A stretch of DNA of 64,000 nucleotides from the NCBI GenBank assembly GCA_964518475.1, contig CAZFGR010000005.1, forward strand, positions 39,415 to 103,414. The letters are read 5' to 3'. The DNA is from an uncultured Nitrososphaerota archaeon. Its GTDB lineage: Archaea; Asgardarchaeota; Njordarchaeia; Njordarchaeales; Njordarchaeaceae. A program made the translations under genes and the position numbers. Positions 17,009 through 50,397 of the stretch are shown in pieces. Below the pieces are notes generated by a model, which was not told the DNA's origin, made no database searches, and was given only the letters and a program-made list of their open reading frames with translations. Every line of letters starts with the position of its first letter. Within the stretch, counting starts at the first letter, position 1.

Positions 17009-18283
17009 TTACTCATACTGAATTCTACGTGCTATTCCTAAGTCAAAGTATTTATCGATTTTGAGTATGATCCAGAACAAGAAGGTTCCAAAGAAAATCT
17101 CAAGTATGCCCGTCAGGAAGTATCTCATCGCAGCTACTTGCCATGCTGGTATTTCATACTGTCCAGAAGCACCAAATATTGTAAACTCTGCGGTAAGACC
17201 AGAGGAGACATAGCCCCATCCTGGCCATGCCACTCCTACTATTGTTGCACCGAATAACGCGGTCTGTAAAGCAGCTATTAACGCGAAGAATACTCCGCTA
17301 ATGAAGGAGAATATGAATATTTTACGGGGGTTCATTTGGAAAGCGTAAGCTGCGACTATTCCCGCTAATAAGCCAAAGATATCCATTATTGGTATGAAGA
17401 TGCTTACTCTCACGGGTGCTTTAAGTTGAACCCCAGTTAGCCACCAGATAAAGTTAAAGAACAGTTTCTCATTGTCCTTATATTGAATATAGGCGGAACC
17501 GAGACCAGAGAGTGGACGGTCACTAAACATTCTTGAGCTTCCACATACGATAATTTTGCCTTTTCCAGTATCTATTGCGACGAGCCAGGGAAGAGAACCC
17601 CTCGCGTGGGGATTACCATTGGCATCCGCAGCATAAGATGTTGGTGGAGTCGTAGCTACAATAATTTTCGGATCTTTCACAATTAGTGATGCGCTAGTTG
17701 TAACGATTTCTTCGATCCCAACACTTATAATGTGGGGCTTAAAATAGTCGGCTGTAACAACTACTTGCCAGGGTCTTCCAGCAACATTGGATGTATCATC
17801 ATATAACTCATCACCATTATTATTGCTTCCCCAGAATATAACCTTGTCTACTACACCAAGAGAGGCTAGTAGATTATTCAAATAATCTGGTTTTCCATAG
17901 GTGCTGCCATAGTACGCCACATCTCCCAAGATTATTACTCCTTTCCCCGCATCAACGAATTGTTTAATAAGATCCAGCTCCTCAGAACTAAAGTCTTGGG
18001 TTCCAGGATTAGGAATCACTAGGACATCGAATTGTAAGAGCTCTTCTAAGCTAGGTAGAGCTTCGCTTGCATTATATTTCTCCACAACAACTCCTTGACG
18101 GATCAAATCACTTATGAGGGTACTATACAGAGCGGTTGAGTAGTATTGACCAGCACTCTCTCTGAAGATGATTTTTATCTCCGTTTCTTGGGATCTTAGA
18201 ACAGTTTGTGATGGTGCTATAAAGACGCTTAGAAGTAGGAGAAATGCCATAGCGATGAATAATTTCCTCAAAAACATCACCAA
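17009..18283 (-). CDS. Membrane protein with extracellular GIFT/DUF4350-like domain and C-terminal TM helices
   Basis: Signal peptide; FDVLVIPNP...FSSEELDLIKQFVDAGKGVIILGD and DNEKLFFNFIWWL; about 3 C-terminal TMs. Confidence 0.8.
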   Translation of the reverse strand: MVMFLRKLFIAMAFLLLLSVFIAPSQTVLRSQETEIKIIFRESAGQYYSTALYSTLISDLIRQGVVVEKYNASEALPSLEELLQFDVLVIPNPGTQDFSSEELDLIKQFVDAGKGVIILGDVAYYGSTYGKPDYLNNLLASLGVVDKVIFWGSNNNGDELYDDTSNVAGRPWQVVVTADYFKPHIISVGIEEIVTTSASLIVKDPKIIVATTPPTSYAADANGNPHARGSLPWLVAIDTGKGKIIVCGSSRMFSDRPLSGLGSAYIQYKDNEKLFFNFIWWLTGVQLKAPVRVSIFIPIMDIFGLLAGIVAAYAFQMNPRKIFIFSFISGVFFALIAALQTALFGATIVGVAWPGWGYVSSGLTAEFTIFGASGQYEIPAWQVAAMRYFLTGILEIFFGTFLFWIILKIDKYFDLGIARRIQYE

Positions 18284-29851: not shown

Positions 29852-29886
29852 GTCAGAAAAGAGCTAGAATTATGTTGTTGGGGAAT

Positions 29887-30282: not shown

Positions 30283-30331
30283 TATTAAAGGTTTTGGTTT
30301 AGTGATAGATGTTTCAAAGGATTAAATAAAC

Positions 30332-31837: not shown

Positions 31838-31906
31838 TTGATAACACCCAGTAACTTCTGATGAAAAAACGTTTAATTTTTATTTTTTAAAGAAGTTTGA
31901 TTTTTC

Positions 31907-34128: not shown

Positions 34129-34186
34129 TTTCTCTCATTTTTATTTTTTAATTAATGTTAATTAAAGAAATTGAGAAGTTTAATGG

Positions 34187-35149: not shown

Positions 35150-35511
35150 TTCCGAGAAACCATTGGTACATATTTAGCGACTTCTTCACTAACCTTTATT
35201 TTGCCATGAATAAGTAATGCTCTGAACAATCTAACAGCCATAGCAACATCTATTTTAGCTGGACAGTGAAGGGTACAAGCTCCACATTCTAAACACGTGA
35301 AAATTCCTCGAACGCTCTCAGGTGTTACTATTTTCTCCCTTAACGCTAAAAGTATTGCGTTAACTCTTCCTCGGGGGCCATACTGGCGGCGAAAGTCACC
35401 GTATTTAAGGGTGGGGCATGCATATTCGCAGAAACCACAGAATGCGCATTTTACAAGCTCTCTATAAATAAGTTTTTCAGCATTCTCTACCTTAGTGACT
35501 GTTAGTATCAT
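35146..35511 (-). CDS. 4Fe-4S dicluster protein (GlcF N-terminal-like)
   Basis: CAFCGFCEYACP and CLECGACTLHCP; PRGR motif. Confidence 0.92.
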   Translation of the reverse strand: MILTVTKVENAEKLIYRELVKCAFCGFCEYACPTLKYGDFRRQYGPRGRVNAILLALREKIVTPESVRGIFTCLECGACTLHCPAKIDVAMAVRLFRALLIHGKIKVSEEVAKYVPMVSRK

Positions 35512-35529
35512 TGCATCATCACCAAAGAT

Positions 35530-36957: not shown

Positions 36958-37047
36958 TTAGACGCCCACCAAATTAGTCAGAACATTAATAACCGTATAT
37001 GTCGAATAAATGCTTTACATATTGATTATCAAAAGTTCTTCTCGATA

Positions 37048-37368
37048 GTGATTAATATGGATAAACTTGTTCGTGATAGGATTCCAGAACTAATGAATCA
37101 GGAAGGAAAATCATTTACTATAAAAAAGGTAAAAGGCCGGGAGTTGCTCCATTATCTGTTCAAAAAATTACTAGAAGAAGTAAATGAACTGATAAAGGAG
37201 CAGAATCCCGAGGAAATAGCTGATATACTAGAGGTTCTAGAAACCATTTGTAGGGTTAAGGGATGGAAATGGGAAGATATCCTAGTTATAAAGGATAAGA
37301 AGCAACGTGAGCGAGGAGGCTTTGAGAAGGGTATCGTTATTAGTGAAGTAGAATTAAGAGAAGAATGA
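37048..37368 (+). CDS. All-alpha NTP pyrophosphohydrolase (MazG/PRA-PH-like)
   Basis: KLVRDRIPE, KLLEEVNE, EEIADILEV and RGGF motifs. Confidence 0.88.
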   Translation: MINMDKLVRDRIPELMNQEGKSFTIKKVKGRELLHYLFKKLLEEVNELIKEQNPEEIADILEVLETICRVKGWKWEDILVIKDKKQRERGGFEKGIVISEVELREE

Positions 37369-38047
37369 GCGAGGCTTTGATAATGAGCTGTAAGACTCCA
37401 TATACCGTGACACTGTAATCATAAATATTAGTTCTCTTCGGAGCGAAACCATAGAACTTAGCTAGCAATGCTTCAGCAAGAGCGTGTCCTCGCTTTATTG
37501 TTGATAATATTATGACAGCTAATGCTTTAGATATTCCCCTCGGAAATGGCCGTGCCGTAGCTATCTCTTTCCTGAGTGTTAGAGCTTCTAAGGTCTGCTG
37601 AATATCTCTAGCAACATAAGGAATTACCTTAAAGGAAAGTTCTGGGATAATAACAAGTTTTAAAGGAAAACCTAGCTTTTCCAGAGCCATGGAGAATTCA
37701 GAAGGTGATGTTGTGGCTGCAAAAATAGCTACGGCCCAAGAAACCCCAATGATCCTAAAGACTATCTCTAAGGCTCTATAGACGTTATAAAGTATTGTTG
37801 CGAAGAAACCTATCAATGCGATGGGTAGTAGAAGCGCTCTAATTGTTCTGTAGAGTGTGTCTAGTGCGCGTGACAAAGAAGCCTCTATAATATCTATTAC
37901 TAAAATAATGGTGAGTAGTTCTAAGTTGGAAAAGGTAGCAGCGATGAAGAGTATTACTAGTCCCAAAAATTTTAGAAGAGGATGTGTCCTGTGAACAATA
38001 GTCTCTCTCCTTATTAGCGAGAATGCATAATAGAGTTCTCTAAACAT
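37340..38047 (-). CDS. ECF transporter T component
   Basis: HRTHPLLKF and ATTSPSEFSMALEKL motifs; coupling-helix region. Confidence 0.85.
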   Translation of the reverse strand: MFRELYYAFSLIRRETIVHRTHPLLKFLGLVILFIAATFSNLELLTIILVIDIIEASLSRALDTLYRTIRALLLPIALIGFFATILYNVYRALEIVFRIIGVSWAVAIFAATTSPSEFSMALEKLGFPLKLVIIPELSFKVIPYVARDIQQTLEALTLRKEIATARPFPRGISKALAVIILSTIKRGHALAEALLAKFYGFAPKRTNIYDYSVTVYGVLQLIIKASLILLLILLH

Positions 38048-38816
38048 TTCTCGTCACCATGTTTCTCAGGTGATCCGCTAGGTCTTCGGGCGTAACAATG
38101 TTCTCTAGCCCTACTATTTTACAGAACTCAACAATCTCGGATAAACCCACAATCTCCTCGAATATTTCGCTGTAAAGGACTTTCTGGGGACTACCCGAGA
38201 GCATTAATTGTCCATTGTTTAATAACAATATATTATCGCATCTCGGCACAAGTCGTAGATCATTCGTCGCTACTAGAATGATTTTTTCACGACCCATCTC
38301 ATTTATGATTCGTATCAGTGCATTTCTGAACACTTTATCGAGCCCTACCGTAGGCTCGTCCATGAGGATTACTTCTGCATCAGAGGCTAGAGCAGAAGCT
38401 ATGGCCAGTACTCGATGTTCTCCCTCGCTTAAGTGATAGATTCTTTTTTTAGCAAGGTGACTTATGTGGAAAATATCTAGTATTTCCTTCACTGTATATC
38501 TGCTGTTGAAAGAAGCAATAATTCTTTCAATATCTTTCTCAACTGTCGGCCCAACTGTAAAAACTTTCGGGTTAGAAGGTACGTAGATTAGCTTCCCTAT
38601 ATTATCAGCGTAAGAGTTTATTTTCTTGCCTAGTACCTCAACGTAACCCCTTTGAGGTTTATAGAATCCCGCAATAATTCTCAATAAGGTTGTTTTCCCC
38701 GAACCATTTGGACCCACTAACATGTTTACTCCATAAGGAATCTCCGTGGTTAGATCCCTGATGCACCACTCCTCACTTCGTGGATACCTATACCATACGT
38801 TTCTTAATCGAATCAT
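38040..38816 (-). CDS. ECF ATPase (EcfA-type, degenerate)
   Basis: GPNGSGKT, LSEGE, MDEPTVGLD; H-loop reads TND. Confidence 0.85.
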   Translation of the reverse strand: MIRLRNVWYRYPRSEEWCIRDLTTEIPYGVNMLVGPNGSGKTTLLRIIAGFYKPQRGYVEVLGKKINSYADNIGKLIYVPSNPKVFTVGPTVEKDIERIIASFNSRYTVKEILDIFHISHLAKKRIYHLSEGEHRVLAIASALASDAEVILMDEPTVGLDKVFRNALIRIINEMGREKIILVATNDLRLVPRCDNILLLNNGQLMLSGSPQKVLYSEIFEEIVGLSEIVEFCKIVGLENIVTPEDLADHLRNMVTRNV

Positions 38817-39603
38817 AGTACTTCACCGCCTCATCAACCGTGAGTGGTGGATTATCAAAACCGGCTAGAAGGAATGATTCAGAGATCTCTGGGACATCAA
38901 CATCTCGCAAATAATGTATTACGTCGTGTGGTTTTCCTTCACATACTTTTTTTCCATTCTTAAGAACCAGAACCTTATCAGCTAAGGGAAGTACCTCATC
39001 CAGATGATGCTCGAAAACAAGAACAATTTTATCATTCTCAACAATTTTTCTGAGTAGTATCGATACAGACTTAGCAGTCAACTTATCAAGTCTCGCAAGA
39101 GGCTCATCAAGTACCAAGACTTTAGGGTCGATAGCTAACGCTGAGGCTAGAGATACTTTCTGAAGCTGACCCGCACTCAACTCTGTGATCAATTTATTTA
39201 GTAAGTTATCTATTCTCAACATGCGTGATATTTCATGTACACGTTTTAGAATAAGATCCTTTGGGTACCCCAGATTAATGAGTGGGAGCGCAATTTCTTC
39301 AAAAACGGTCAGTGATGTTGTGAACATCTCGGGATCTTGACCAACGAAACTCACAAGCCCTAATAAAGCCTTTATTCCCTCCTTCACTGGATTTTTACCA
39401 AATATAAGCACTTCTCCGAGAACATCAGCTTTGTAGAAAAAAGGTATAAAACCAGCAATAGTATGAGCTAGTGTTGTTTTCCCACTCCCACTAGGTCCAG
39501 CAATTAACACTAATTCTCCAGGTCTAGCTGTGAAAGAAATATTTTTAAGGGCGTAGTCGCTTGCCCCCCAGTATCTAACGCTGAGATTCTTCACTACCAA
39601 CAC
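38788..39603 (-). CDS. ECF ATPase (EcfA-type)
   Basis: GPSGSGKT, QDP, LSAGQ, LDEP and EHH motifs. Confidence 0.9.
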   Translation of the reverse strand: MLVVKNLSVRYWGASDYALKNISFTARPGELVLIAGPSGSGKTTLAHTIAGFIPFFYKADVLGEVLIFGKNPVKEGIKALLGLVSFVGQDPEMFTTSLTVFEEIALPLINLGYPKDLILKRVHEISRMLRIDNLLNKLITELSAGQLQKVSLASALAIDPKVLVLDEPLARLDKLTAKSVSILLRKIVENDKIVLVFEHHLDEVLPLADKVLVLKNGKKVCEGKPHDVIHYLRDVDVPEISESFLLAGFDNPPLTVDEAVKYYDSIKKRMV

Positions 39604-40348
39604 TGAGACCCATCTCCATCAACGCTCTTACTGTAGGAACCCCTATAGCAGTACCAATTACTGCTTGACCTATATTTACTGGCAATTCCATAGCAGCAAT
39701 AATAAATCCATACCCAAGAACTATTGCCTCATATAAGTAATACCCTAACACCATTTCTACACCAGCTATTAGACAGGATAGAGTCATTACAGAGAATATA
39801 TCGCCACGTGAGCCTGTAATGATTAATGCTGTTGCGAGACCACCTATTATTAAGAGGACGACCCACAATGGAAGAGTAAGTGAGTATTCTTGTCCACGGA
39901 TTTCAAGAACCATTGAAAGACCTTTTGCACCATGATAACTCAAAACAATAGCAATTATCGCTGCTGCTACTAAACCGAATAATAGACGTATCTCTCGGCC
40001 AGCTCCTCTTAAACGCTGGAATAGGTATCCAGCAAGGAATCCCTCTACGCCCTTTATAACTAATGTACCGGGCGCGTAATGAGCATAGCCTAGGAATATA
40101 TCCGCGAGAGCTGATCCGAGACCGCCAGCTATTGCACCCACTATTGGACCGCCTATGAGAGCAGATATGTAAACACCTATCTCTCCAAAATTAAAGAATC
40201 CTTGTGTGGCTGGTGTTGATATGGCAAAGAACGTAGTGAATAAGAAGATAATAACTGTGAAGATGACTGAGAGGGCGATATCTAAATAACTAAATTCTAT
40301 CCCATAATAAGTTGCCTCTGGTTTAGTTCCCATACGAGACCACCACAC
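39575..40348 (-). CDS. ECF transporter S component
   Basis: GFFNFGEIGVY, GGLGSALADI, APGTLVIKG and NIGQA motifs; has an internal two-TM insertion. Confidence 0.88.
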   Translation of the reverse strand: MWWSRMGTKPEATYYGIEFSYLDIALSVIFTVIIFLFTTFFAISTPATQGFFNFGEIGVYISALIGGPIVGAIAGGLGSALADIFLGYAHYAPGTLVIKGVEGFLAGYLFQRLRGAGREIRLLFGLVAAAIIAIVLSYHGAKGLSMVLEIRGQEYSLTLPLWVVLLIIGGLATALIITGSRGDIFSVMTLSCLIAGVEMVLGYYLYEAIVLGYGFIIAAMELPVNIGQAVIGTAIGVPTVRALMEMGLSVGSEESQR

Positions 40349-40435
40349 ATGAATAGAAATGAGTTGTCCTAAATGCTTTTAATATATAGGAAGAAACCTA
40401 TATATTGGTAGAGACCAGTAGTGCGAGGATTTTGA

Positions 40436-41881
40436 ATGAGTTTTTCCTATAAGTGCGTCAACTGTGGAAAGGTCTTTAATGGAGACTTAATTATCAGTAG
40501 ATGCTTGTACTGTGGAGGGCTACTATTTGTAGAGTATGAAGTTGATGAGTTGAGAGTTTCTGATATCCAAACCATGTGGCGTTATAAGAAGATTTTACCA
40601 ATTCATGAGAATGAAAAAATAATTTCTCTATCAGAGGGTTTTACACCACTAATAAGGGCGGAAAATCTCGAGAAAATAGTGGGCTTTTCTCGAATTTACC
40701 TAAAAGATGAGACAAGAAATCCAACGGGATCCTTTAATGATCGAGGAATAAGCTTAGAAATTTCCAAGATTGTGAATCATGGAATTAACAATGTAGTATG
40801 CGCTACGCGTGGAGATACGGGAGTATCCTTGGCTGCTTATGCGTCAAAAGCGGGGATTAATGCCACAATATACGTTCCTCGAACAATAGATACTGGCAAA
40901 CTGTATCAAATCGCTATGTATGGAGCAAAACTAAAACTAGTAAGAAGCTTTAATAATGCATGTTCTCTTGCGGAATCTCACAAGCTCGAGGCACACGTCT
41001 TTAGACCCTCTAATCCCTTATTTTTGGAAGGCCTGAAAACTGTAGGAATAGAAATAATTGAGCAATTAGGTTGGGAGACGCCAGATGCCATTATCGTGCC
41101 TATGGGGAATGGAGGCTTAGCAACAATGCTTTTCAAAGCAATGAACGAATTACAAGCGCTAGGACTTATCGATGAAAAACCAATGATCATTGGTGTTCAG
41201 ATAAAAGGGCAAGATACTATACTTAGTGCATTAACGAGAGGGTTAGAAAGAATAGAGACTCTTGAAGACTTCGGAAAGATTATAGCAAGAGATCTACTAA
41301 TTGAGGATCTAGATCTAGCAAACAATACACTCCAGATGCTAAAGAAGGGAGAAATCAAAGGGGCCAGCATAAGTTATAAGGAGGTAATACAAGCAGTAGA
41401 AAATCTTGCGAAAAGCGAAGGAATATTATCAGAACCCGCAAGTGCTGTCGCTATAGCGGCTATTAAGAGAATATATGATGAGGGACTAATTGATAAAGGA
41501 GATACAATAGTGTCCATAGTGACGGGCTCTGGACTCAGAGTTCCTAATATGTTTCATGAAATACTTAAGAAGAAAGGCGAACTTAGAGAGATTATCGATC
41601 TAGTTGTTAGCGGGCAGAGAATCTCTAGAATTGGAGTTACGAAATTGAAAATCTTAGAGATTCTGAAAAATGGTTCATTATACGGCTACGAACTGAAAAA
41701 GAAACTGGAGCACGTTGGGATAAAGATTTCCTTAGCAACTCTTTATCAACATTTAAGAGAGCTTGAAAAACTGGGTCTTATATCTAGAATAGAAGGATGG
41801 ATTGGTAAAAAAAAGAGAGTGTACTACGTATTAACGAATAAGGGCTTTCAGATACTTGAGGGGTTATCCCATACACATTAA
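40436..41881 (+). CDS. Threonine-synthase-like fold-type II domain fused to a C-terminal PadR-like wHTH; PLP lysine absent
   Basis: CxxC...CxxC, SLSEGFTPL, NPTGSFNDRG (K replaced by N), VPMGNGG; C-terminal YGYELKK...LYQHLRELEKLGLI...YYVLT. Confidence 0.88.
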   Translation: MSFSYKCVNCGKVFNGDLIISRCLYCGGLLFVEYEVDELRVSDIQTMWRYKKILPIHENEKIISLSEGFTPLIRAENLEKIVGFSRIYLKDETRNPTGSFNDRGISLEISKIVNHGINNVVCATRGDTGVSLAAYASKAGINATIYVPRTIDTGKLYQIAMYGAKLKLVRSFNNACSLAESHKLEAHVFRPSNPLFLEGLKTVGIEIIEQLGWETPDAIIVPMGNGGLATMLFKAMNELQALGLIDEKPMIIGVQIKGQDTILSALTRGLERIETLEDFGKIIARDLLIEDLDLANNTLQMLKKGEIKGASISYKEVIQAVENLAKSEGILSEPASAVAIAAIKRIYDEGLIDKGDTIVSIVTGSGLRVPNMFHEILKKKGELREIIDLVVSGQRISRIGVTKLKILEILKNGSLYGYELKKKLEHVGIKISLATLYQHLRELEKLGLISRIEGWIGKKKRVYYVLTNKGFQILEGLSHTH

Positions 41882-41987
41882 ACATTTCCTTAAAGCACAG
41901 ACTTAGAACATTGGTTTAAAAATTAGTTTAAATTTAAAATAAAAATAAGAACTTTCGATAAAAAGAAAAATGGGAATACTTCCTTTA

Positions 41988-42970
41988 TCAATACAGATCT
42001 TTTAGCAATACGTTATGACCCTGGATCTGGAAAATCAGGGCTCTTATATCAAGCCCTTCTGGAGCTTGGAATTCAAGAATAATCTCGTGACTTCCAGAGG
42101 GCGTATGCAGGCCGCCGACGCAGGGGACGCGTAGGTCATCATCAGATAGGAGCCAGGGGAGAACGTCACCATAGACGCTGTGGAGGGCGGTGATTAGGGC
42201 AGCTCGATTAGGGATCCGTTGGGGAGGGTTGCGTAAAGCTTGACATAGTCAATATAGGAGACTGTCTCAAAGTGTTCGACGAGCTTAAAGATGTACCTAC
42301 CCCTGACCAAGGCTGGCATTGTAGCTATGGTATGATTATAAGTCGTATCAGTACTCTCGTCGGTATGGATATCTAACAAGCCCTCGTTCACGAAATTCTC
42401 GCCATCGTACACGTAAAGGTAGAGACAGCCGCCGGAGTTCCCGGAGTCTTGGGTATCGAATACAAAGTATATCCCCGCTGGGACATCGAACTCCTTAATC
42501 TCAGTAGAGGTCCAAGTAGAGTAGCGATAATTACTGAGAGCAATAAAGACGTCCTCAGAAACATCATAGCCAAGACCCAAATTTTCATCATAACCATGAT
42601 TAGTTACTTGCCCGTTAGCATACCAGGCAGTTTCTTCTACATAGTTCACCGAAATAGCGAGACCGGCAATTACGGGGGCTACCAGTGCTAGGGACGTGGA
42701 GGCAATAAGAGTAGCTATTATAGCCCCGACAGAAATACCCACCCCGAAATCGACTCTATAGACATCGAAAGTCTCCATGATCACTTCAAATGGTACACTC
42801 TCTCCTGGATCCAAGTCACCATCTTTCAGTTCCGCTGAGTTAGGGACGTACAGATGAGTCAAGTGTGTGCCTTCGAAGAACCAATCCATCATCGGAGGCA
42901 GGCCTGACTTGTCTCCCCCAACAATACTGACAGTACCAGATTCTACTTGAACATCTTTTATGGAGTTAAC
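41988..42970 (-). pseudogene. 5'-truncated, frameshifted fragment of a surface-protein gene
   Basis: No start codon or signal peptide upstream. After ...LIELP, a one-base shift at ~42196 restores LITALHSVYGDVLPWLL...LIFQIQGHN...LY* (stop at 41988). Visibly more GC-rich than the flanks. Confidence 0.65.
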
Positions 42971-43039
42971 GTATTTTTTAACATGTTTTTGTTAGTTATT
43001 AACCTATTACTTAAGGACTAAGGACTGTCTTACTTTTTA

Positions 43040-43645
43040 TTGATCATTGGTCTTGATGATATAATGATAATGGTGGGTGCCGTGGATAGGGAAGAATATT
43101 TGCCTCCTAAAAAAGCTGCTGAACTGCTGGGTGTTCATCCATTAACACTTTATAGATGGGCTAAAAGAGGAAAGATAAAATACATAAAGACTCCAGGTGG
43201 GCGTTTTCGTTATCCTTTATCAGAAATCATGAGAATTTTAGGTGAGAGAGAAAAAGCAGATAAAAAGTATAGGGCAGTGATCTATGTGAGAGCAACTCCT
43301 AGTGAAGAAAAAGACATTTCGAGAAAAATCGAAAGGCTCAAGAGATATGCAAAGGAGAAAGGCTTCATAATCCATGATAAAGTGATAGATATTACGAGTG
43401 GCCTCTGTTCAGAAAGACCTGGATTAAAAAAAGTATTGGAATTAGCGAAGAATGGTGAGATCTCAACTATAATTGTTGAAGAGAAAAGCGATATTTCTCC
43501 CATTTGTTATTGGGTATTTGAGGAGTTGTTTCAAGTACTAGGTGTGAAAGTAAAGGAAGTGTCTAAGGGTAAAAAAGAAAAAGAGAAACTTTACCACGAA
43601 CTGCTTGACTTCATAATTGAGGTTCTACAAAAGGGGGTTATGTGA
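43040..43645 (+). mobile_element. IS607-family TnpA-like serine recombinase (N-terminal HTH), degenerate, no tnpB
   Basis: PKKAAELLGVHPLTLYRW...TPGGRFRY; resolvase-like AVIYVRAT...DITSGL...RPGL. Confidence 0.8.
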
Positions 43646-45017
43646 GCCCGCGTTTAATTAGTTCTCGTCTTAATTTTCTGAAATACTTAAGAGCATAGAT
43701 TAGTGATAAGAAGACAGACCACATCATTGTTACGCATAGAACGCCCCATTTCAGAATCTCAAGGTATTCTATACGCAAAGCATGTTTCAAAGCCGATAGT
43801 GCTTCTGCCTCTAAATCGATGTTATCTCCTCTAATAGATTTTACATATGTTTCATTGAAGGCCCTGTAAAGTACGATGCCTTTTGATTGTTTCGGTGGGG
43901 GAACTCCGAGTATAAACGCAACTGTAGGAGCTATATCAATTATTCTTCCACCACCCAATTCTACTCCATGCCTGAACGGTGCACCCCACATCCATAATGG
44001 TATGTCAGCAACAAGTGGTGGCCATACGCCAAAATGCCTCTGACCTATCATGCCATGATCAGCGGTTACTATTATGACTGTATCGTTTTCCCATCCCATA
44101 TCGTGAATTTTTTGGTAGAGTTCACCAACTAACTCCGCCATTCTTCTAATTGTTGAGTGGTACAGAGTAGAATCAGAACCCGCTTGATGACCAGCTTCAT
44201 CCGGATCTACTAAGTGTATCCAAGCCAACAATCCATTTTTCTCTATATCATCTTTATGAGTTTCTATGAAGTTTATAGCATCATTCATCATTTCTGCGCC
44301 TAACCCCCCTGTGCGTCGATAAGTATTCGATGCTCCTAAAATACTTGCTAAATTGGTTGGAGCGGCGAAAATAGCCGTTAATATTCCGTATCTCTCCGCT
44401 ACCTCGAAAATATCTTCTTCTCTCGGCGGTCTATATTTTCTGAGAATAAATTGTACACTAGAATATTCTCCCCCAGCGTTCGCTTCTGTACCATGGATCT
44501 GGGGCCATGTACCAGTAAATAATGAGACGTGGTTAGGATACGTAATCGTGGGATAAGTACAAACAATCCTGTAAGCCCATGCGCTCTCGTTACGATGATT
44601 AATGATGAATGTAGCATATTCCCAGAACGCATCTGCTCTTGTGCCATCAAAAGTTATAATAAAGACTTTCGAAGCAAGAGGAGGCTTCCGAGTCTGGAGA
44701 ATCTGTGTTCCCCCGTGAGTAGAAAAGGGCACTGTGGAAGATACTAAGAGAAGCACGATTAATAATACTCCAAGGCGTTTTAGTCTTCTTCTAGAACCCG
44801 CTATAACCAATAGTCCTATGGGCACAACCGTAACGAAGAGAAGCAAAAATGTATCAAATAGATACAACAAAGAGCTCCTTGCCAAATCGGCGAGTGCTAG
44901 ATTATTTTCTAGTCTAAATACATCACCGAATTGTAGAGATAGCGGTAGAACGATTAATAAAGTATAGGAAAGAATTATCAGGATACTGATTCTTCTGCGT
45001 AAAAGTGTACCAAGCAT
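43638..45017 (-). CDS. Membrane-bound alkaline phosphatase/NPP-superfamily enzyme
   Basis: FDGTR, PTITYPNH (Thr nucleophile), PDEAGH, TADHG and DIAPT motifs; N- and C-terminal TMs. Confidence 0.88.
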   Translation of the reverse strand: MLGTLLRRRISILIILSYTLLIVLPLSLQFGDVFRLENNLALADLARSSLLYLFDTFLLLFVTVVPIGLLVIAGSRRRLKRLGVLLIVLLLVSSTVPFSTHGGTQILQTRKPPLASKVFIITFDGTRADAFWEYATFIINHRNESAWAYRIVCTYPTITYPNHVSLFTGTWPQIHGTEANAGGEYSSVQFILRKYRPPREEDIFEVAERYGILTAIFAAPTNLASILGASNTYRRTGGLGAEMMNDAINFIETHKDDIEKNGLLAWIHLVDPDEAGHQAGSDSTLYHSTIRRMAELVGELYQKIHDMGWENDTVIIVTADHGMIGQRHFGVWPPLVADIPLWMWGAPFRHGVELGGGRIIDIAPTVAFILGVPPPKQSKGIVLYRAFNETYVKSIRGDNIDLEAEALSALKHALRIEYLEILKWGVLCVTMMWSVFLSLIYALKYFRKLRRELIKRGLT

Positions 45018-45081
45018 TGCTCTCCACCAAAACCAGAGGTGTTATAGAAAGGAAAGGTAAAAAAGATAAAAATTCAACAAT

Positions 45082-46836
45082 TTACTGAGAAGATGCTTCT
45101 TCTCGCTTTTTCAAGTATAGTGGGAGATAAATTAGTATTCCCGATAACACTAGAGTGATGAGCAAAGATCCAATGATAGGTGTTAGCGGCATCTTAGCTT
45201 CTTCGATCTTAACCACTAATAAAGTAGTTACTGTGCCTCCCAGAATATTGTCTTGAGAATCAACAATGTATATTCTAAGAGTATAAGTGTCTTCTTCGGA
45301 GACTGTTATATTAAAGCTCTCTGATCCACTTGTTTTAGTGAGATCTCTGGATATGGTAGAATATATGCTTCCATTACTATAAATAACATCCACTACTAGC
45401 CTACTTCCACTCACTGGTTCAGAAAGTGTATAATTAACACTTATCATAACTTGTTGATTAGGTTGTGCAATAGCGGGGGTTACGGAGGCGGTTATGAATG
45501 CTGAGGGTAAAAGAATATCAAGTGGTTCTACTGTAGCGTTTGGAAGCGTTACACCAAGGAATCTAGCCATCGTAGCTCCAATATGCATTATGCTAACGTT
45601 TGTTACTTGCGAATCTTTCTTCACAGTTTCGCCAGAGAATATTATTGGGATTGTTTGAGTTGCTGTTCCACCATGGGCACCTACGGATGCGTAACGGGAA
45701 GCATAATAAGGAGGCTTTATATCTAGGAAGATGTCTCCCGCATAATCTATGTCTAAGCCAAGATCTGCAAGAGTACCATCTGTATTATTGGCTGGGTATC
45801 GAGTCCATATACCATTTACCCAGGGATACTGACGTAGTTCATCAACAACGCTTTGCAAGTCCTCTGGGTGTTTCAGGTAAATGAAAAGGGACAAACCAGC
45901 AGTTTCTACAATGGTATGTTCAGTGTGTATCGCGGTCAAGTGATTGATATCGCTGGCTAACAAATTCTTGTTGATATCAACATTTACGAAGCCATGATCT
46001 GTTGCCAATACGAGAAATGTCCGTGACCATAGGTTGAGGTCGATGATTTTTGAGATTATTCTTCCTATTTCCTGATCTAGAATCTCAACCATTCTTATAG
46101 TATCTGGATGGTATACGCCTAGGGCCCCAGCGATCCAATCAATTTCTCCATAATGAGTAATTATGAGTGCTTTTTCACCATCAATTACATAGGGAGCGAA
46201 TTCCTCGATAGTTTCTATGGTCTTATTCGTGATCCACTTAACATTTATGACTCTTTTCTCGAAAGGATATGTGGCATCATGGGGATCGCCGGGACCGATA
46301 ACATCGCTTGGTAGAATTATCAACTTATCAGTAGCTTGTGATTTACCAGCCATTAATTGGAGTTTTTCCTTACTAACTATAAGAGCTACCTTAGCTCCAG
46401 CCTCTTTAGCCATTTCGGGAAGAGTTTTTACTCGAAGCATATCCATGTAGCCGTAACTTTGCGGGCTCTCGTCTGGGAGCATTTCGTGATACTCAGAGGC
46501 GTTGTAGGCATATGTGTGAACAACACCATTTATTTCGGGAGGAGCACCAGTAATCATTGCAGCATGCGCAGCTGTTGTGTCGGAGGGGAGTACTGTTGTG
46601 GCATTGAGTATTGTGATACCATGGTCAATCAGCCACGGAATCCATGTAAGATTAGCCATATTGAGAAGGCTTTCATTAAGAGCGTCGATCATAATGATTA
46701 TTCCTAGATTTCCGAGAGGTTTTATGATAGTGGAATCAGTGCTAATTCTAATGGCTGGGAAACTGTAAGAACTCTCCGCAATTGGAACTATTATTAATGT
46801 GAGAAATAGGACAACAGCGAGTACTCGTCTTGTCAA
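45082..46836 (-). CDS. Secreted, membrane-anchored alkaline phosphatase/NPP-superfamily protein
   Basis: Signal peptide; IDAL, PSDTTAAH, ATDHG and GAHGG motifs; Ig-like domain and C-terminal TM. Confidence 0.85.
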   Translation of the reverse strand: MTRRVLAVVLFLTLIIVPIAESSYSFPAIRISTDSTIIKPLGNLGIIIMIDALNESLLNMANLTWIPWLIDHGITILNATTVLPSDTTAAHAAMITGAPPEINGVVHTYAYNASEYHEMLPDESPQSYGYMDMLRVKTLPEMAKEAGAKVALIVSKEKLQLMAGKSQATDKLIILPSDVIGPGDPHDATYPFEKRVINVKWITNKTIETIEEFAPYVIDGEKALIITHYGEIDWIAGALGVYHPDTIRMVEILDQEIGRIISKIIDLNLWSRTFLVLATDHGFVNVDINKNLLASDINHLTAIHTEHTIVETAGLSLFIYLKHPEDLQSVVDELRQYPWVNGIWTRYPANNTDGTLADLGLDIDYAGDIFLDIKPPYYASRYASVGAHGGTATQTIPIIFSGETVKKDSQVTNVSIMHIGATMARFLGVTLPNATVEPLDILLPSAFITASVTPAIAQPNQQVMISVNYTLSEPVSGSRLVVDVIYSNGSIYSTISRDLTKTSGSESFNITVSEEDTYTLRIYIVDSQDNILGGTVTTLLVVKIEEAKMPLTPIIGSLLITLVLSGILIYLPLYLKKREEASSQ

Positions 46837-46953
46837 ATTTATCTCCTCAGACTAGTTAAAAGGCAAATAAAACTAAGAAAAATTAACAATATAAATCAAA
46901 TCACGGTATGGGATTCTGAGCTATCGAGAAATAAAGGTAGTGCATGAGAGTTT

Positions 46954-47985
46954 TTAGAGGGTTATTGGAAATCCTAGATAATAATTCAGGAAGGGTATAA
47001 TGATTATTAAGATGAGACCTATTGTGAATACGATTGTGTATATAATGTCGAACGTTGTGAAAGGTATTTTTCTGAAGTAGGTTCTTTCCTTATACGCTCT
47101 GAAAGCCTTGGTAGTAGCGGCTAATGCCAACTGTCTGCCAGCTCTTAACGACTCTATTATAACTGGGATAAAAGCCATGATTACGACGTAGAACGATCTG
47201 AAAAGTTCTCTGATTACTTTAATGATGTTTGTAGAAGGCTCTGGGAATATCCTAAGGCCTCTCGCTATTTCGGCTGCTAGAACAAGTGAGCTCTTTTCAA
47301 GGATTGTTGGTATGCTCCTGAATGCTACAGCTATCATAAAGTTTATCTCCACAGGAAACCTAAATACCCGTAATCCGTAGACTATTTCGCTAGGGTGAGT
47401 AGTTGTTATCAACCATACAGCAGCACTCAGAGCAGCGACCAGTCTTAGTCCCTGGGAGACGCCATAATAGAATCCTTCTAACGTTATATAGTTTAGATTG
47501 AATACTATTCTCAAGGGTTTGGGGAAGCGATAAATAGCTGTTAAGCCTATTCCTCTGGTAAATCCTGGATTTAGAAAGCTCTGAGCCCACGCAACTAATA
47601 ACCATTGAGTAAGTAAAAGAATAGTTAGTAAACGCATTTTGTCCTCGCTAGGATTACTTATAGACCACATGCTTATCGACAATAATGTTAGGATAAGGAG
47701 CGACCAAAACTCTTCAACCATTGCTACACCAATGCTAATGAAAAGTACAAACATTATTTTTGACAAAGGATGCATTCTATGCGCTAATGAGCTCCTTCTT
47801 TCATAACTAAATAATCTTCTAAACCCTGATAGACCTATGATCTTGAAGACTAGATAAGCTATAAGAGCTGGGAAGAACGTTAATAGTATAACGAATATCA
47901 TTATAGCACTAATAATCTCGCGCGTAGCCGGGGGAATTATGGGGAATAACTCAGTTAGAAAAGATAGGTCGATTTCATAACTCAT
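46954..47985 (-). CDS. ECF transporter T component with extra N-terminal TM
   Basis: HRMHPLSK, TTHPSEI and AEIARG motifs. Confidence 0.88.
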   Translation of the reverse strand: MSYEIDLSFLTELFPIIPPATREIISAIMIFVILLTFFPALIAYLVFKIIGLSGFRRLFSYERRSSLAHRMHPLSKIMFVLFISIGVAMVEEFWSLLILTLLSISMWSISNPSEDKMRLLTILLLTQWLLVAWAQSFLNPGFTRGIGLTAIYRFPKPLRIVFNLNYITLEGFYYGVSQGLRLVAALSAAVWLITTTHPSEIVYGLRVFRFPVEINFMIAVAFRSIPTILEKSSLVLAAEIARGLRIFPEPSTNIIKVIRELFRSFYVVIMAFIPVIIESLRAGRQLALAATTKAFRAYKERTYFRKIPFTTFDIIYTIVFTIGLILIIIIPFLNYYLGFPITL

Positions 47986-48611
47986 GAAGACTCACCCGCT
48001 AACTTTCTAAACAAAATAGATTCTAAATCGGAACCACACTTCCAGCAGTAATGAGAATTACTATAAATTACCGCGTTACAAGATGGGCAAACCAGAGGCA
48101 TTTCTAGATGAACCTTATACTCCGCTGGCACCTTGATTCCTGCCTTTTCCAGCGCATCAAAAAATGTGATCCGGGATTTTCTCTTATAATTCAAGATGAC
48201 TACTCCCACTACTAGTAGGCTGAATGGAATTGGATAGAAACTTTCTGGAAAGTAGAGTTTAACAGGGATATGTCGATACCATGAGAGATATAAGATGTAA
48301 ACGAGGTAATTCAGTAGCATTCCAAGAACTATATCATCAAATTTTTTGACCCAGTCAGCTACTATTGCCCACGTGATAATCCAAGTGATAATAACTGCTA
48401 CTAGATTAGTTCCTTCTAAAGCCTCTGGAGTGGCAAGAAGCAGCCATTGAATAACAGTATTAACAGCTATCGGTTGATCCCTATAAAGCGTGATTATGAA
48501 ACCAAAACGGGTTAAGTAAAGTTCTCGAGAAAGAAATTGGAGAATCACTAAGATAATAGGAGCAGTAACGCCTCCAAGCCAGGCAGATCTTAGAATATCT
48601 TTAACATTCAC
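47982..48611 (-). CDS. Membrane protein with C-terminal zinc ribbon
   Basis: About 4 TMs followed by CPSC...CWKCG; overlaps ecfT by 4 bp. Confidence 0.78.
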   Translation of the reverse strand: MNVKDILRSAWLGGVTAPIILVILQFLSRELYLTRFGFIITLYRDQPIAVNTVIQWLLLATPEALEGTNLVAVIITWIITWAIVADWVKKFDDIVLGMLLNYLVYILYLSWYRHIPVKLYFPESFYPIPFSLLVVGVVILNYKRKSRITFFDALEKAGIKVPAEYKVHLEMPLVCPSCNAVIYSNSHYCWKCGSDLESILFRKLAGESS

Positions 48612-48630
48612 TAAACATCACCCTCCAAAT

Positions 48631-50397
48631 CTATTCAGCTTTTGAATCTCTAAGCAAATCAGCAAGAACCAGTATCAATTCCTCTATGGTGAGAACTGTT
48701 GGTACTCCGAAATCGCGAAGCTTATTGCCTATTCTTGTGATGTATGGCGGTTCTATATGTGTTTCGGCTAAGATATCTTCTCTAGAGAAAACTACTCTAG
48801 TCGGGCCATCAAAAAGAACCCGTCCCTGTTTAAGAACGATAACTCTTTTTGCGTATCGAGCTATTAAGTCCATATCATGGGAAACAACAATAATAGTTGT
48901 TCCTCTCCGGTTAAGTTCCTCTAATAGTTCCAAATATTTTTTCCTGGAGCCAAAGTCTTGTCCCGTCGTTGGTTCATCTGCAATCAATATTTTTGGTCTC
49001 ATCGCTAATATGGAGGCTACAGCTACTCTATGTCTTTGCCCTCTACTAAGAGCTCTGGGATGTCTCTTCTCGTAACCCTTTAAACGCATCATCTCCAGAG
49101 ATTCCTCTACTCTCTTCTTTATTTCCTCCCTTGGTAATTTGAGGTTTTTAGGACCAAAGGCTATTTCGTCCCATACAGTATTTTGGAACAGCATTAAATC
49201 AGGATTTTGGAATATTAAACCCACCTTCTGAGAAAGCTCCGCCACGGATAACTTTCTAACATCCTCGCCAAATACCTTAACTACCCCATAACTAGGTCTT
49301 AAAAGGCCAAGCAAATGAAGCAAAAGAGTTGTTTTTCCAGCACCATTCTGGCCTATGATCCCTACAAATTCGCCCTCATGAATTGTGAGATTTATTCCCT
49401 TGAGTGCTATTGTACCATCAGGGTATTGGTGCCAAAGATTAATAACTTCTACCACGGGTTTCCTTTTCCTTAAGCTTTCGTAGTATTCAATGTCTTTAGC
49501 AAAGAATTTCTCGTTCGCATTAACTCTTTTTCCACGCTTGCTTAAATATTTTCGAAGAATTTCCGCGGCCTCTTCGGGAGTTATTGGGATCTTTTCATCA
49601 CTACTAATTAGTTTTTCCCTTTGTAATCGAACAATTGTTTCAGCGGCCCATGGCGGTCTTATACCTATTTCATAAAGAAGGTCTGGATTGCCAAATACTT
49701 CTCTAGGAGGACCATCCGCTATGATCTCACCATTATTCATTACCAAAACTCTATCCACATACTTAGAGACTTCCTCCAACCTGTGCTCTATAAGTATGAT
49801 AAGAGCATTTGTTTCTTTGCGCAGTCTGGCAATAGTTTTAAGCACCTCCGCAGCACCTCTTGGGTCAAGATTTGTAGTTGGTTCGTCTAGGATGAGAATA
49901 TCCGGCATCATGGCCATAGCTGACGCTATAGCTACTCTCTGCTTCTGACCCCCCGAGAGACTCATAAGATCCTTTTCCAACAAATCCTCGATTCCCGTAG
50001 CTTTTACCGCGAATTCTAGTCTTTTAGCTATTTCTTCTCGCGGTAATCTAAGATTCTCTGGCCCGAAAACCACTTCATCAAGCACAGACAGTGTAAAGAA
50101 TTGAGTCTCAGGATCCTGGAACACAGTAGCTACGTGAGTAGATATCTCTGCTAATGAGAGATCTTTCACCTCTTTTCCAAGAATTCTCACATGACCTTTT
50201 CTTAAGCCTTGAATTACGTGAGGAATTATCCCATTTATCGTGTTTATTAAAGTTGTTTTACCACAACCACTTGGCCCGATAAGTAAGACGAATTCGCCCC
50301 TACGAAACTCCAGATTGATGTTTTTCAGGACGTACTCCTTAGATCCATGATACCTAAAGGATAAATCCTCAATTTCTAAGACTACTTCATCCCTCAT
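48631..50397 (-). CDS. ECF dual-domain ATPase (EcfA-A' fusion, YkoD-like)
   Basis: Two NBDs: GPSGCGKT/LSGGQ/LDEPT and GQNGAGKT/LSRGQ/ADEPT. Confidence 0.93.
   Translation of the reverse strand: MRDEVVLEIEDLSFRYHGSKEYVLKNINLEFRRGEFVLLIGPSGCGKTTLINTINGIIPHVIQGLRKGHVRILGKEVKDLSLAEISTHVATVFQDPETQFFTLSVLDEVVFGPENLRLPREEIAKRLEFAVKATGIEDLLEKDLMSLSGGQKQRVAIASAMAMMPDILILDEPTTNLDPRGAAEVLKTIARLRKETNALIILIEHRLEEVSKYVDRVLVMNNGEIIADGPPREVFGNPDLLYEIGIRPPWAAETIVRLQREKLISSDEKIPITPEEAAEILRKYLSKRGKRVNANEKFFAKDIEYYESLRKRKPVVEVINLWHQYPDGTIALKGINLTIHEGEFVGIIGQNGAGKTTLLLHLLGLLRPSYGVVKVFGEDVRKLSVAELSQKVGLIFQNPDLMLFQNTVWDEIAFGPKNLKLPREEIKKRVEESLEMMRLKGYEKRHPRALSRGQRHRVAVASILAMRPKILIADEPTTGQDFGSRKKYLELLEELNRRGTTIIVVSHDMDLIARYAKRVIVLKQGRVLFDGPTRVVFSREDILAETHIEPPYITRIGNKLRDFGVPTVLTIEELILVLADLLRDSKAE

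What the first reader, a model, noticed from the sequence alone, without database searches (positions are those of the whole stretch)
43638..50397. ECF operon with no recognisable S component but two ecto-phosphatase-family genes; candidate other half of the GIFT/S-component locus
Seen: dual ATPase, TM/Zn-ribbon protein, EcfT and two membrane-anchored AP/NPP-superfamily genes, all co-oriented. Known: YkoE-type S components partner dual-ATPase YkoD and YkoC. The orphan S component at 24347-25642 is YkoE-like, and the other ECF operon (37.3-40.3 kb) already has its own S component. Inference: a nine-gene capture, dephosphorylate and import system for phosphorylated or phosphodiester compounds (nucleotides, cofactors or lipid head groups), split over two loci about 18 kb apart. 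This is my best candidate for an undescribed system.
Basis: partly seen in the sequence, partly recalled or inferred. Interest (0 to 1): 0.85.

Follow-up and report, generated by a model that had tools for sequence, protein, structure and literature searches.

The report
Split nine-gene Asgard ECF surface system
An Asgard (Njordarchaeales) archaeon carries a conserved nine-gene set, contiguous in relatives but split in two here: an ATP-driven ECF importer whose substrate-binding subunit has an outward-facing domain, two surface phosphodiesterases, three GIFT-domain surface proteins and a new zinc-ribbon membrane protein; its substrate is still unknown.

Summary
Window 43638-50397 (- strand) encodes a fused ECF A-A' ATPase, a 4-TM/Zn-ribbon protein, EcfT and two membrane-anchored NPP/alkaline-phosphatase-superfamily ecto-enzymes, with no Pfam-recognisable S component.

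In seven related genomes from four GTDB families, the homologue of the orphan 431-aa protein (24347-25642) and its GIFT-domain neighbours lie directly beside this ECF/NPP block. In two further lineages the S431 gene abuts ecfT.

The AlphaFold model of S431 (pLDDT 90) has an N-terminal TM helix, an Ig-like ectodomain, a second TM helix and a six-helix core. The best PDB match of that core is YkoE (5edl, Z 15.1). The 209-aa Zn-ribbon protein has no S-component fold. It belongs to a very small family with no Pfam match beyond its zinc ribbon and is probably an accessory subunit.

So this is one group-I, YkoEDC-like ECF system with unusual extracytoplasmic partners, broken up in this genome by about 18 kb of ordinary chromosomal DNA. 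"Capture, dephosphorylate, import" is the best mechanistic reading but remains inference, and the substrate is unknown.

First readers of this scan noted the same kind of system on other genomes (e1-5473336, e1-2384063, e1-5477377).

The parts
48631..50397 (-). Fused ECF A-A' ATPase (588 aa, YkoD-like layout). Both halves have Walker A, a signature motif and Walker B.
   Evidence: Two ABC_tran domains; TIGR04520 and TIGR04521 score 492 and 497 bits. Orthologues lie in every related cluster.
47982..48611 (-). TMZn_209: four TM helices, a conserved amphipathic helix and a cytoplasmic C4 zinc ribbon. It belongs to a very small family with no Pfam match beyond its zinc ribbon, and is a candidate accessory subunit.
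   Evidence: AF2 model pLDDT 84. No fold match: best Z 7.0, Foldseek E about 1. Only 13 full-length 50%-identity clusters among 1.8 billion representatives. Invariant C175, C178, C189 and C192. Complex prediction gave weak support.
46954..47985 (-). EcfT (343 aa) with two invariant Arg-bearing coupling-helix motifs (ERARG, and ES-I/L-R-x-A-R).
   Evidence: PF02361, 73.5 bits. R242 and R281 are invariant in 13 orthologues.
45082..46836 (-). NPP_584: signal/anchor helix, AP-superfamily ecto-domain (N-terminal part PhnA-like), beta-rich stalk and C-terminal TM anchor.
   Evidence: PF01663, 78 bits. PDB hits to phosphonoacetate hydrolase. The Thr nucleophile, D51, D233, D280/H281 and H387 are conserved, but the His of the DxxxH motif is absent. 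Anchors from hydropathy.
43638..45017 (-). NPP_459: three N-terminal TM helices, an NPP-type ecto-phosphodiesterase domain with a full catalytic set, and a C-terminal TM anchor.
   Evidence: PF01663, 82 bits. Aligns with Xanthomonas NPP and ENPP4/5 across the D, T and N positions and the DxxGH and DHG motifs. These are conserved in 12 orthologues. Hydropathy.
24347..25642 (-). S431: the cognate S component. Layout: TM helix 4-36, Ig-like ectodomain 40-196, TM helix 198-220, then a six-helix YkoE-like core 226-431. The likely true start is the ATG at 25633.
   Evidence: AF2 pLDDT 90. 5edl_A (YkoE) Z 15.1, rmsd 3.5, 171 aa; also FolT, HmpT, NikM, PanT and ThiT. Sub-threshold PF09819 hit on residues about 230-328. 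Atlas TM 0.70/0.81 to a cluster carrying PF09819. Adjacent to ecfT in relatives.
21388..24207 (-). GIFT939: signal peptide, two GIFT domains, CARDB/DUF11 stalk, C-terminal TM anchor.
   Evidence: PF23355, 50.7 bits; DUF11/CARDB. Paralogue of GIFT960 at 29% identity over the full length. Anchors.
18332..21214 (-). GIFT960: signal peptide, two GIFT domains, two Big_7 Ig domains, C-terminal TM anchor.
   Evidence: PF23355, 62.8 bits; PF09822, 59.1 bits; Big_7; sub-threshold OST48_N at 32 bits.
17009..18283 (-). GIFT424: N-terminal anchor, one GIFT domain, three C-terminal TM helices.
   Evidence: PF09822, 37.7 bits. Hydropathy. Orthologues lie in the related clusters.

Best explanation
The two blocks are one conserved Asgard gene system. 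It is built around a group-I (dedicated, YkoEDC-like) ECF transporter: the fused A-A' ATPase, EcfT_343, and S431 as the substrate-binding S component.

S431 is unusual. Its YkoE-like six-helix core is preceded by a TM helix, an extracellular Ig-like domain and a second TM helix.

The core is accompanied by:
- a lineage-specific 4-TM/Zn-ribbon membrane protein, a probable accessory or regulatory subunit contacting EcfT and/or NPP_584;
- two membrane-anchored ecto-enzymes of the NPP/alkaline-phosphatase superfamily;
- three membrane-anchored proteins carrying five GIFT domains in total.

The most likely mechanism is as follows. A phosphodiester- or pyrophosphate-containing extracellular compound (a nucleotide-type cofactor or similar) is held at the cell surface. 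The NPP enzymes cut it. The uncharged organic product is bound by S431 and moved in by the ATP-driven ECF module.

Shown: gene content, family and fold assignments, conserved linkage, and intact catalytic and coupling motifs.

Inferred: physical assembly, ecto-orientation, the order of events, and the substrate.

In this genome and its closest relatives a chromosomal rearrangement has placed about 18 kb of ordinary genes between NPP_459 and S431.
For: Linkage.
- All nine genes are contiguous in L027/G004. Near-complete contiguous sets occur in G001, G005, G006, G008, G013 and G017.
- Gene order and orientation are shuffled between these genomes, but the neighbourhood is kept.
- S431 lies 12-21 bp from ecfT in L029 and L036.
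- S431 and TMZn co-occur across Njordarchaeales.

S component.
- S431 residues 226-431 match YkoE at Z 15.1. This is the top hit among 48,161 chains, and other S components follow it.
- The only PF09819 hit in the whole genome, although sub-threshold, falls on the same residues.
- An Atlas cluster carrying PF09819 matches residues 36-430 at TM 0.70/0.81.
- Helix 1 carries A236-x3-A240, with A240 invariant.

ECF module.
- EcfT has invariant coupling-helix arginines.
- The ATPase scores about 490 bits on both ECF ATPase models.
- The fused-ATPase, dedicated-T, YkoE-type-S layout is that of YkoEDC (PMC5037267).

NPP enzymes.
- NPP_459 keeps the nucleophile and all metal ligands.
- Both NPPs and the GIFT proteins have hydrophobic anchors with basic tails after the C-terminal one, which predicts ecto-domains.

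TMZn.
- Complex prediction of TMZn against EcfT plus the S431 core gave ipSAE 0.55 against a best control of 0.01. The score fell to 0.01 when EcfT was swapped out. Verdict: weak support.
- The mark was reached by 58 of 80 solved complexes and 2 of 110 mismatched pairs. At 0.60 or below it was reached by only 7 of those 80 solved complexes and by both mismatches that passed.
- The runs agree in at least 97% of contacts, and the partner's pLDDT is at least 72.
Against: - There is no biochemical, expression or structural data for any component.
- No cytoplasmic salvage enzyme is consistently linked that would name the substrate.
- The genome has ThiC and Thi4, so thiamine auxotrophy does not explain a YkoE-like importer.
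- S431 fails the PF09819 gathering score (14.6 against 25.2 bits). No PDB sequence match was found even with a profile.
- NPP_584 lacks one canonical metal-binding His and may not be a hydrolase.
- In L041, L043 and L028 the TMZn gene is coupled to NPP_584, not to ecfT.
- In Loki- and Odin-type MAGs the S431-like gene pairs only with a GIFT-RDD gene, with no ECF genes nearby. Some members may therefore act without this module.
- GIFT domains have no demonstrated ligand-binding role.
Confidence: 0.5

Rival explanations
1. A surface glycan or lipid-carrier machine rather than a nutrient importer. The NPP enzymes would act on polyprenyl/dolichyl (pyro)phosphate-linked groups or phospho-glycans at the outer face. 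The toppling S component would flip or retrieve the lipid-linked head group. The GIFT proteins (the domain shared with OST48/WBP1) would scaffold the process.
For: - GIFT960 has a sub-threshold OST48_N hit at 32.1 bits.
- Njordarchaeales encode OST48/WBP1 homologues and a complex OST (PMC10307638).
- The distant locus L041 places AA-NPP-TMZn among a GT4 glycosyltransferase, a sugar nucleotidyltransferase, an epimerase/dehydratase and a DegT-like aminotransferase.
Against: - No glycosylation genes are consistently linked in the Njordarchaeales clusters.
- All characterised ECF transporters import small soluble substrates.
- The OST48_N score is below its cut-off.
Confidence: 0.12
2. The ECF module works as a mechanotransducer or exporter that powers or assembles the GIFT-protein surface array. 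This would be analogous to the GldA/GldF/GldG ABC system, in which the GIFT protein GldG accompanies an ABC transporter. S431's ectodomain would transmit ATP-driven movement.
For: - The GIFT proteins match PF09822, the 'ABC-type uncharacterized transport system' auxiliary family that includes GldG.
- The GIFT plus S431-like pair is the most widely conserved unit.
- S431 has a rigid, well-modelled ectodomain.
Against: - ECF-type modules are known only as importers.
- S431 keeps a YkoE-like core with many invariant polar and aromatic residues, which is typical of a ligand pocket.
- This reading leaves the two NPP enzymes unexplained.
Confidence: 0.1
3. The linkage is only positional. The ECF transporter (with S431) is an ordinary vitamin importer, and the NPP and GIFT genes are functionally unrelated surface proteins that happen to be neighbours.
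For: There is no direct evidence of interaction. The cluster is split in several genomes: G000, G002, G007, G010 and G009.
Against: - The neighbourhood survives repeated shuffling of order and strand across at least four GTDB families and one unplaced metagenomic lineage.
- When the cluster splits, GIFT genes travel with either half: with the ECF/NPP block in L015 and L017, and with S431 in L031 and L033.
Confidence: 0.1
4. The 209-aa Zn-ribbon membrane protein is the real S component of this operon, and S431 serves another ECF module.
For: Its gene sits between the ATPase gene and ecfT, with a 4-bp overlap. The complex prediction gave weak support for contact with EcfT.
Against: - It has four TM helices, not six. 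No S-component match exceeds noise: best Z 7.0 to an unrelated protein, and Foldseek E about 1.
- S431 has the S fold and sits next to ecfT in nine other loci.
- TMZn was not found in the S431/EcfT-bearing G069.
Confidence: 0.03

Closest known systems
YkoEDC of Bacillus subtilis (group-I ECF thiamine transporter; YkoE structure 5EDL, PMC5037267)
   Same: Dedicated module with a fused double ATPase (YkoD-like), its own T component, and an S component whose core is structurally closest to YkoE (Z 15.1).
   Different: - About 15% identity, and S431 fails the PF09819 cut-off.
- S431 has an extra TM helix, an Ig-like ectodomain and a second extra TM helix in front of the core.
- There are additional partners: the Zn-ribbon membrane protein, two NPPs and three GIFT proteins.
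- The substrate is not inferable, and the host makes its own thiamine precursors.
- The genes are split in this genome.
CbiMNQO / NikMNQO / NikKLMQO metal ECF transporters
   Same: Group-I ECF systems that need extra small membrane subunits (CbiN, NikN, NikL) or an extracytoplasmic one (NikK), from general knowledge. NikM, which has seven TM helices because of an extra N-terminal helix, aligns with S431 residues 197-431, including its extra helix (Z 10.5).
   Different: TMZn_209 has four TM helices and a cytoplasmic zinc ribbon, and it matches no Pfam membrane family. S431 is closer to YkoE than to NikM.
GldA/GldF/GldG-type ABC systems with a GIFT (PF09822) auxiliary protein
   Same: GIFT-domain membrane proteins are genetically tied to an ABC transporter.
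   Different: The partner here is an ECF-type module, not an ABC-2 exporter. There are five GIFT domains on three Ig-stalked, TM-anchored proteins. The host is archaeal (Asgard).
Ecto-nucleotidase/pyrophosphatase-coupled vitamin uptake (for example NadN/e(P4) with PnuC, or UshA-type processing of FAD/NAD; from general knowledge)
   Same: The logic is shared: a phosphorylated cofactor is cleaved outside the cell and the uncharged moiety is imported.
   Different: Those enzymes and transporters are unrelated families and are not encoded as one conserved cluster with the transporter. No activity has been shown here.
Uncharacterised archaeal cluster 'ABC-type cobalt transport system, permease component domain-containing' (ESM Atlas; 124 members, mostly Methanobacteriota; PF09819 in 28% of members)
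   Same: It has the same two-part architecture, a beta-sandwich ectodomain plus a YkoE-like core (TM 0.70/0.81 over 337 residues).
   Different: No detectable sequence similarity. Its gene context was not examined here.

Membership tests
ECF transporter (energy-coupling factor ABC importer) | T component of the CbiQ/EcfT family with two Arg-containing coupling helices | tested here: met
   PF02361, 73.5 bits. R242 (ERARG) and R281 are invariant in 13 orthologues.
ECF transporter (energy-coupling factor ABC importer) | Two EcfA-type ATPase domains | tested here: met
   One 588-aa fusion. TIGR04520 scores 492 bits and TIGR04521 scores 497 bits, both above their cut-offs.
ECF transporter (energy-coupling factor ABC importer) | S component with the six-helix S fold | tested here: met
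   Predicted structure only. S431 residues 226-431 match 5edl_A at Z 15.1, followed by 4huq_S, 4hzu_S, 6zg3_H, 4tkr and 3rlb.
ECF transporter (energy-coupling factor ABC importer) | Small-xxx-Ala motif on S helix 1 facing the T component | tested here: inconclusive
   A236-x3-A240 lies at the start of core helix 1, and A240 is invariant. Positional equivalence was not checked on coordinates. YkoE itself lacks the canonical motif.
ECF transporter (energy-coupling factor ABC importer) | Physical S-T-A-A' complex and ATP-dependent uptake | not testable with these tools
   Only the accessory TMZn was scored in the complex job.
Group-I (dedicated) ECF transporter | S gene encoded together with its own A and T genes | tested here: met
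   Met in seven related genomes and in L029 and L036. In this window the S gene lies 21 kb from ecfT.
YkoE family (Pfam PF09819, ABC_cobalt) | Score above the Pfam gathering threshold | tested here: not met
   14.6 bits against a cut-off of 25.2, E 0.049, on residues about 230-328. No hit in the direct scan.
YkoE family (Pfam PF09819, ABC_cobalt) | Thiamine-binding pocket residues | not tested
   No residue-level structural alignment was available.
NPP / type I phosphodiesterase (PF01663, alkaline-phosphatase superfamily) | Pfam score above cut-off | tested here: met
   NPP_459 scores 82.2 bits and NPP_584 scores 78.1 bits, against a cut-off of 23.
NPP / type I phosphodiesterase (PF01663, alkaline-phosphatase superfamily) | Thr nucleophile plus six metal-ligand residues | tested here: met
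   This applies to NPP_459. FDGTRAD, T-YPNH, D-x-D-x3-H, TADHG and a later His are aligned to Xanthomonas NPP and conserved in 12 orthologues.
NPP / type I phosphodiesterase (PF01663, alkaline-phosphatase superfamily) | Same catalytic set in NPP_584 | tested here: inconclusive
   The nucleophile Thr, D51, D233, D280/H281 and H387 are conserved. The His of DxxxH is replaced. E231 is conserved nearby.
GIFT domain (PF23355 / PF09822) | Pfam score above cut-off | tested here: met
   GIFT939: 50.7 bits. GIFT960: 62.8 and 59.1 bits. GIFT424: PF09822 at 37.7 bits against a cut-off of 34.7.
CbiN/NikN-type ECF accessory subunits | Sequence-family membership of TMZn_209 | tested here: not met
   Pfam and NCBIfam give only weak zinc-ribbon hits.

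The most novel reading that the evidence does not exclude
This would be the first ECF transporter that works with extracytoplasmic partner proteins. An array of GIFT domains would capture a phosphorylated ligand, two ecto-NPP enzymes would process it, and the product would be handed to an S component that carries its own docking ectodomain. A Zn-ribbon membrane subunit would couple the surface enzymes to the ATPase. If true, GIFT domains (shared with eukaryotic IFT52 and OST48) would gain a concrete biochemical role in an Asgard archaeon.
Probability: 0.3. Interest if true: 0.8.

Novelty: new variant of a known kind. Interest (0 to 1): 0.62.

Why it matters
ECF transporters are defined as ABC importers that dispense with extracytoplasmic binding proteins. 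This system pairs one with an ectodomain-bearing S component, a new membrane subunit and five surface proteins. It therefore offers a testable exception to that definition.

It also gives a genomic handle on two things that remain poorly understood. One is the function of GIFT domains, which occur in GldG, IFT52 and OST48. The other is how hyperthermophilic Asgard archaea, the closest prokaryotic relatives of eukaryotes, scavenge compounds from their surroundings.

The result also shows that an "orphan" ECF module and an "orphan" S gene 18 kb apart can be assigned to each other from comparative synteny.

Tried and rejected
- **Sequence searches for S431.** Both the single sequence and the 37-sequence profile reached only about 44 clusters at 90% identity, labelled as Asgard or as Thermoproteota/Nitrososphaerota, none with a Pfam domain. 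A profile search against PDB sequences found nothing at E up to 10.
- **Foldseek on the whole S431 model.** The Ig-like domain swamped the results. VIA-align was needed to see the S core.
- **TMZn_209 fold searches.** Nothing rose above noise. Atlas feature hits were only unnamed archaeal Zn-ribbon clusters.
- **Shared regulatory motif.** None was found upstream of the two blocks or of internal genes; only AT-rich 9-10-mers were shared.
- **Rfam.** No hit anywhere in the window, so no riboswitch names a substrate.
- **Mobile-element explanation for the split.** Rejected: the 18.6-kb insert has no flanking direct or inverted repeats, shows no GC anomaly, and carries housekeeping-type genes.
- **Thiamine auxotrophy.** Rejected as a rationale for a YkoE-like importer: ThiC and Thi4 are present. 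ThiE was not found in a 91%-complete genome.
- **Expression data.** No RNA holder was listed among the public runs.
- **Ectodomain similarity.** BLAST found no similarity between the S431 ectodomain and the stalk domains of the NPP or GIFT proteins.
- **Literature.** Searches for ECF + Asgard, GIFT + archaea, GldG + GIFT, and S component + extracellular domain found no description of such a system.

Full report
**What is in the window.**
Five co-oriented genes on the - strand occupy 43638-50397.
- A 588-aa fused ECF ATPase, with both ECF_ATPase models at about 490 bits.
- A 209-aa protein with four hydrophobic helices and a C4 zinc ribbon. It overlaps the next gene by 4 bp.
- A 343-aa EcfT (PF02361, 73.5 bits).
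- Two PF01663 (NPP/alkaline-phosphatase superfamily) proteins of 584 and 459 aa.

No S-component family is detectable in the block. The ECF operon at 37340-40348 has its own riboflavin-type S component. The genome holds six EcfT genes.

The second block, also on the - strand, is S431 (24347-25642), which has no Pfam hit, followed by three GIFT-domain proteins of 939, 960 and 424 aa. Source names on homologues and related contigs place the organism in Njordarchaeales, an Asgard lineage. The genome tool's "phylum" sample looks wider than Asgard. This fits the known attraction of Njordarchaeales to Korarchaeota (PMC10307638).

**Are the two blocks one unit?**
Yes, on comparative evidence. I searched relatives with the 209-aa protein, fetched the surrounding contigs and mapped all nine window proteins onto them.
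- One contig (L027/G004) carries the full set in a row: NPP_459, NPP_584, ATPase, TMZn, EcfT, S431, GIFT, GIFT, GIFT.
- G001, G005, G006, G008, G013 and G017 carry contiguous sets that include S431 beside the ECF genes. These genomes belong to four GTDB families.
- In L029 and in a Heimdallarchaeota-labelled MAG (L036), S431 ends 12-21 bp before ecfT.
- Order and strand differ between lineages, but the neighbourhood persists.
- When the set is split in the g2 genomes, GIFT genes go with either half (L015 and L017 against L031 and L033).
- S431 and TMZn were each found once in the window's genome. They co-occur in 12 of 14 Njordarchaeales genomes. The exceptions are 66% and 78% complete.

The window's order equals the G005 order with the ECF block inverted and 18.0 kb (25643-43637) inserted between NPP_459 and S431. 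That insert has no terminal repeats and no compositional anomaly, and it carries ordinary genes. A small serine recombinase gene sits exactly at the NPP_459 junction, and also in G002, which shares the split.

**Which protein is the S component?**
The AlphaFold model of S431, built from a 37-sequence alignment (pLDDT 90.3), has four parts: a TM helix (4-36), a beta-sandwich (40-196), a second TM helix (198-220), and a helical core (226-431).
- Foldseek saw only the Ig-like domain, matching pilins and adhesins.
- The exhaustive VIA-align search put YkoE (5edl_A) first: Z 15.1, rmsd 3.5 Å, 171 of 197 residues. FolT, HmpT, NikM, PanT and ThiT followed at Z 9-11.
- A genome-wide scan with the YkoE Pfam model gave a single sub-threshold hit, on S431 residues about 230-328.
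- The ESM Atlas holds an archaeal cluster, mostly Methanobacteriota, with PF09819 in 28% of members. It matches residues 36-430 at TM 0.70/0.81. So the ectodomain-plus-YkoE-core architecture exists elsewhere, uncharacterised.

The 209-aa protein (model pLDDT 84) gave no match above the noise expected for helical bundles. Its family has only 13 full-length representative clusters among 1.8 billion proteins. It is therefore not the S component.

EcfT shows invariant arginines in both coupling helices. The module layout (fused ATPase, own T, YkoE-type S) is that of the group-I YkoEDC transporter.

**The accessory proteins.**
*NPP enzymes.* NPP_459 aligns with Xanthomonas NPP and ENPP4/5 across the Asp, Thr-nucleophile, Asn, DxxGH and DHG motifs. 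All of these are conserved in 12 orthologues. NPP_584 is PhnA-like at its N-terminus. It keeps the nucleophile and most ligands but lacks the DxxxH histidine.

*Topology.* Hydropathy and the basic tails after the C-terminal anchors predict that both catalytic domains, and the GIFT domains, face outward.

*GIFT proteins.* GIFT939 and GIFT960 are full-length paralogues with two GIFT domains each, and GIFT424 has one.

*TMZn.* In Njordarchaeales the TMZn gene sits between the ATPase gene and ecfT. In Asgardarchaeum (L028) and in two metagenomic lineages (L041, L043) it follows the NPP_584 gene, overlapping it by 4 bp in L041 and L043. A three-chain complex prediction gave only weak support for TMZn against EcfT and the S431 core: ipSAE 0.55 against a best control of 0.01, falling to 0.01 when EcfT was replaced. 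I read TMZn as an accessory subunit that may bridge EcfT and NPP_584. This is inference.

*Wider Asgard.* In Loki- and Odin-type MAGs the S431-like gene is preceded by a 660-aa protein with weak GIFT/DUF4350 and RDD matches, and no ECF genes lie nearby.

**Mechanism and rivals.**
The best-supported reading is a dedicated ECF importer whose substrate is produced at the surface by the NPP enzymes, with the GIFT array and the S431 ectodomain as capture or docking elements. Confidence in the genetic and structural part is about 0.9. Confidence in the relay mechanism is about 0.4.

Nothing names the substrate. There is no riboswitch and no consistently linked cytoplasmic enzyme. The genome has ThiC and Thi4.

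The rivals are:
- a glycan or lipid-carrier role, hinted at by a sub-threshold OST48_N hit and the glycosylation genes around L041;
- a GldAFG-like mechanotransducer;
- mere neighbourhood;
- TMZn as the S component, which is the least likely.

**Novelty.**
The core is a known kind, a group-I ECF transporter. The ectodomain-bearing S component, the Zn-ribbon subunit and the conserved coupling to ecto-NPP and GIFT proteins are not described in the papers I could search. First readers of this scan noted the same kind of system on other genomes: e1-5473336, e1-2384063 and e1-5477377.

Noticed in passing
window 43040-43645 (+): A small serine recombinase (MerR/HTH_17 plus resolvase catalytic domain, an IS607-TnpA-like layout). 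Its end overlaps the stop of NPP_459, exactly at the junction where the cluster is broken. An orthologue sits at the same place in G002 (L022 5225-5809).
   Followed up: partly
window 15502-16803 (-); also L023, L028 1036-2352, L029 16989-18311, L041 14310-15608: A Clp1-type P-loop (polynucleotide-kinase family) gene lies next to the cluster in at least five lineages, beside different cluster members. The genome has two full-length Clp1_P genes, so this one could be a cytoplasmic tenth member, for example to re-phosphorylate an imported product.
   Followed up: partly
L017 1566-2321 (-): In the g2 genome G010 a HAD-family hydrolase gene follows ecfT by 59 bp. It is not present at this position in other loci.
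   Followed up: partly
L038 808-2817 and L039 307-2292: In Odin- and Loki-type MAGs the S431-like gene is preceded (gap of about 5 bp) by a 660-aa protein with weak GIFT/DUF4350 and RDD-family matches. A GIFT-S pair therefore seems to be the oldest core.
   Followed up: partly
window 25814-26356 (+): A Ras/Arf-like small GTPase gene lies divergent from S431, followed by a 283-aa ORF with no family. This is typical Asgard content. It is not conserved next to S431 in the other loci.
   Followed up: partly
window 40436-41881 (+): A PLP-dependent (PALP) enzyme fused to a C-terminal PadR-type winged-helix domain, divergent from the riboflavin-type ECF operon at 37340-40348.
   Followed up: no
window 11790-15455 (+): A 1221-aa protein with an N-terminal winged-helix hit and long apolipoprotein/prominin-like helical repeats.
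   Followed up: no
window 34187-36957 (-): A glycolate-oxidase-like trio (FAD-linked oxidase, 4Fe-4S dicluster protein, CCG-domain protein) inside the 18-kb stretch that separates the two blocks.
   Followed up: no
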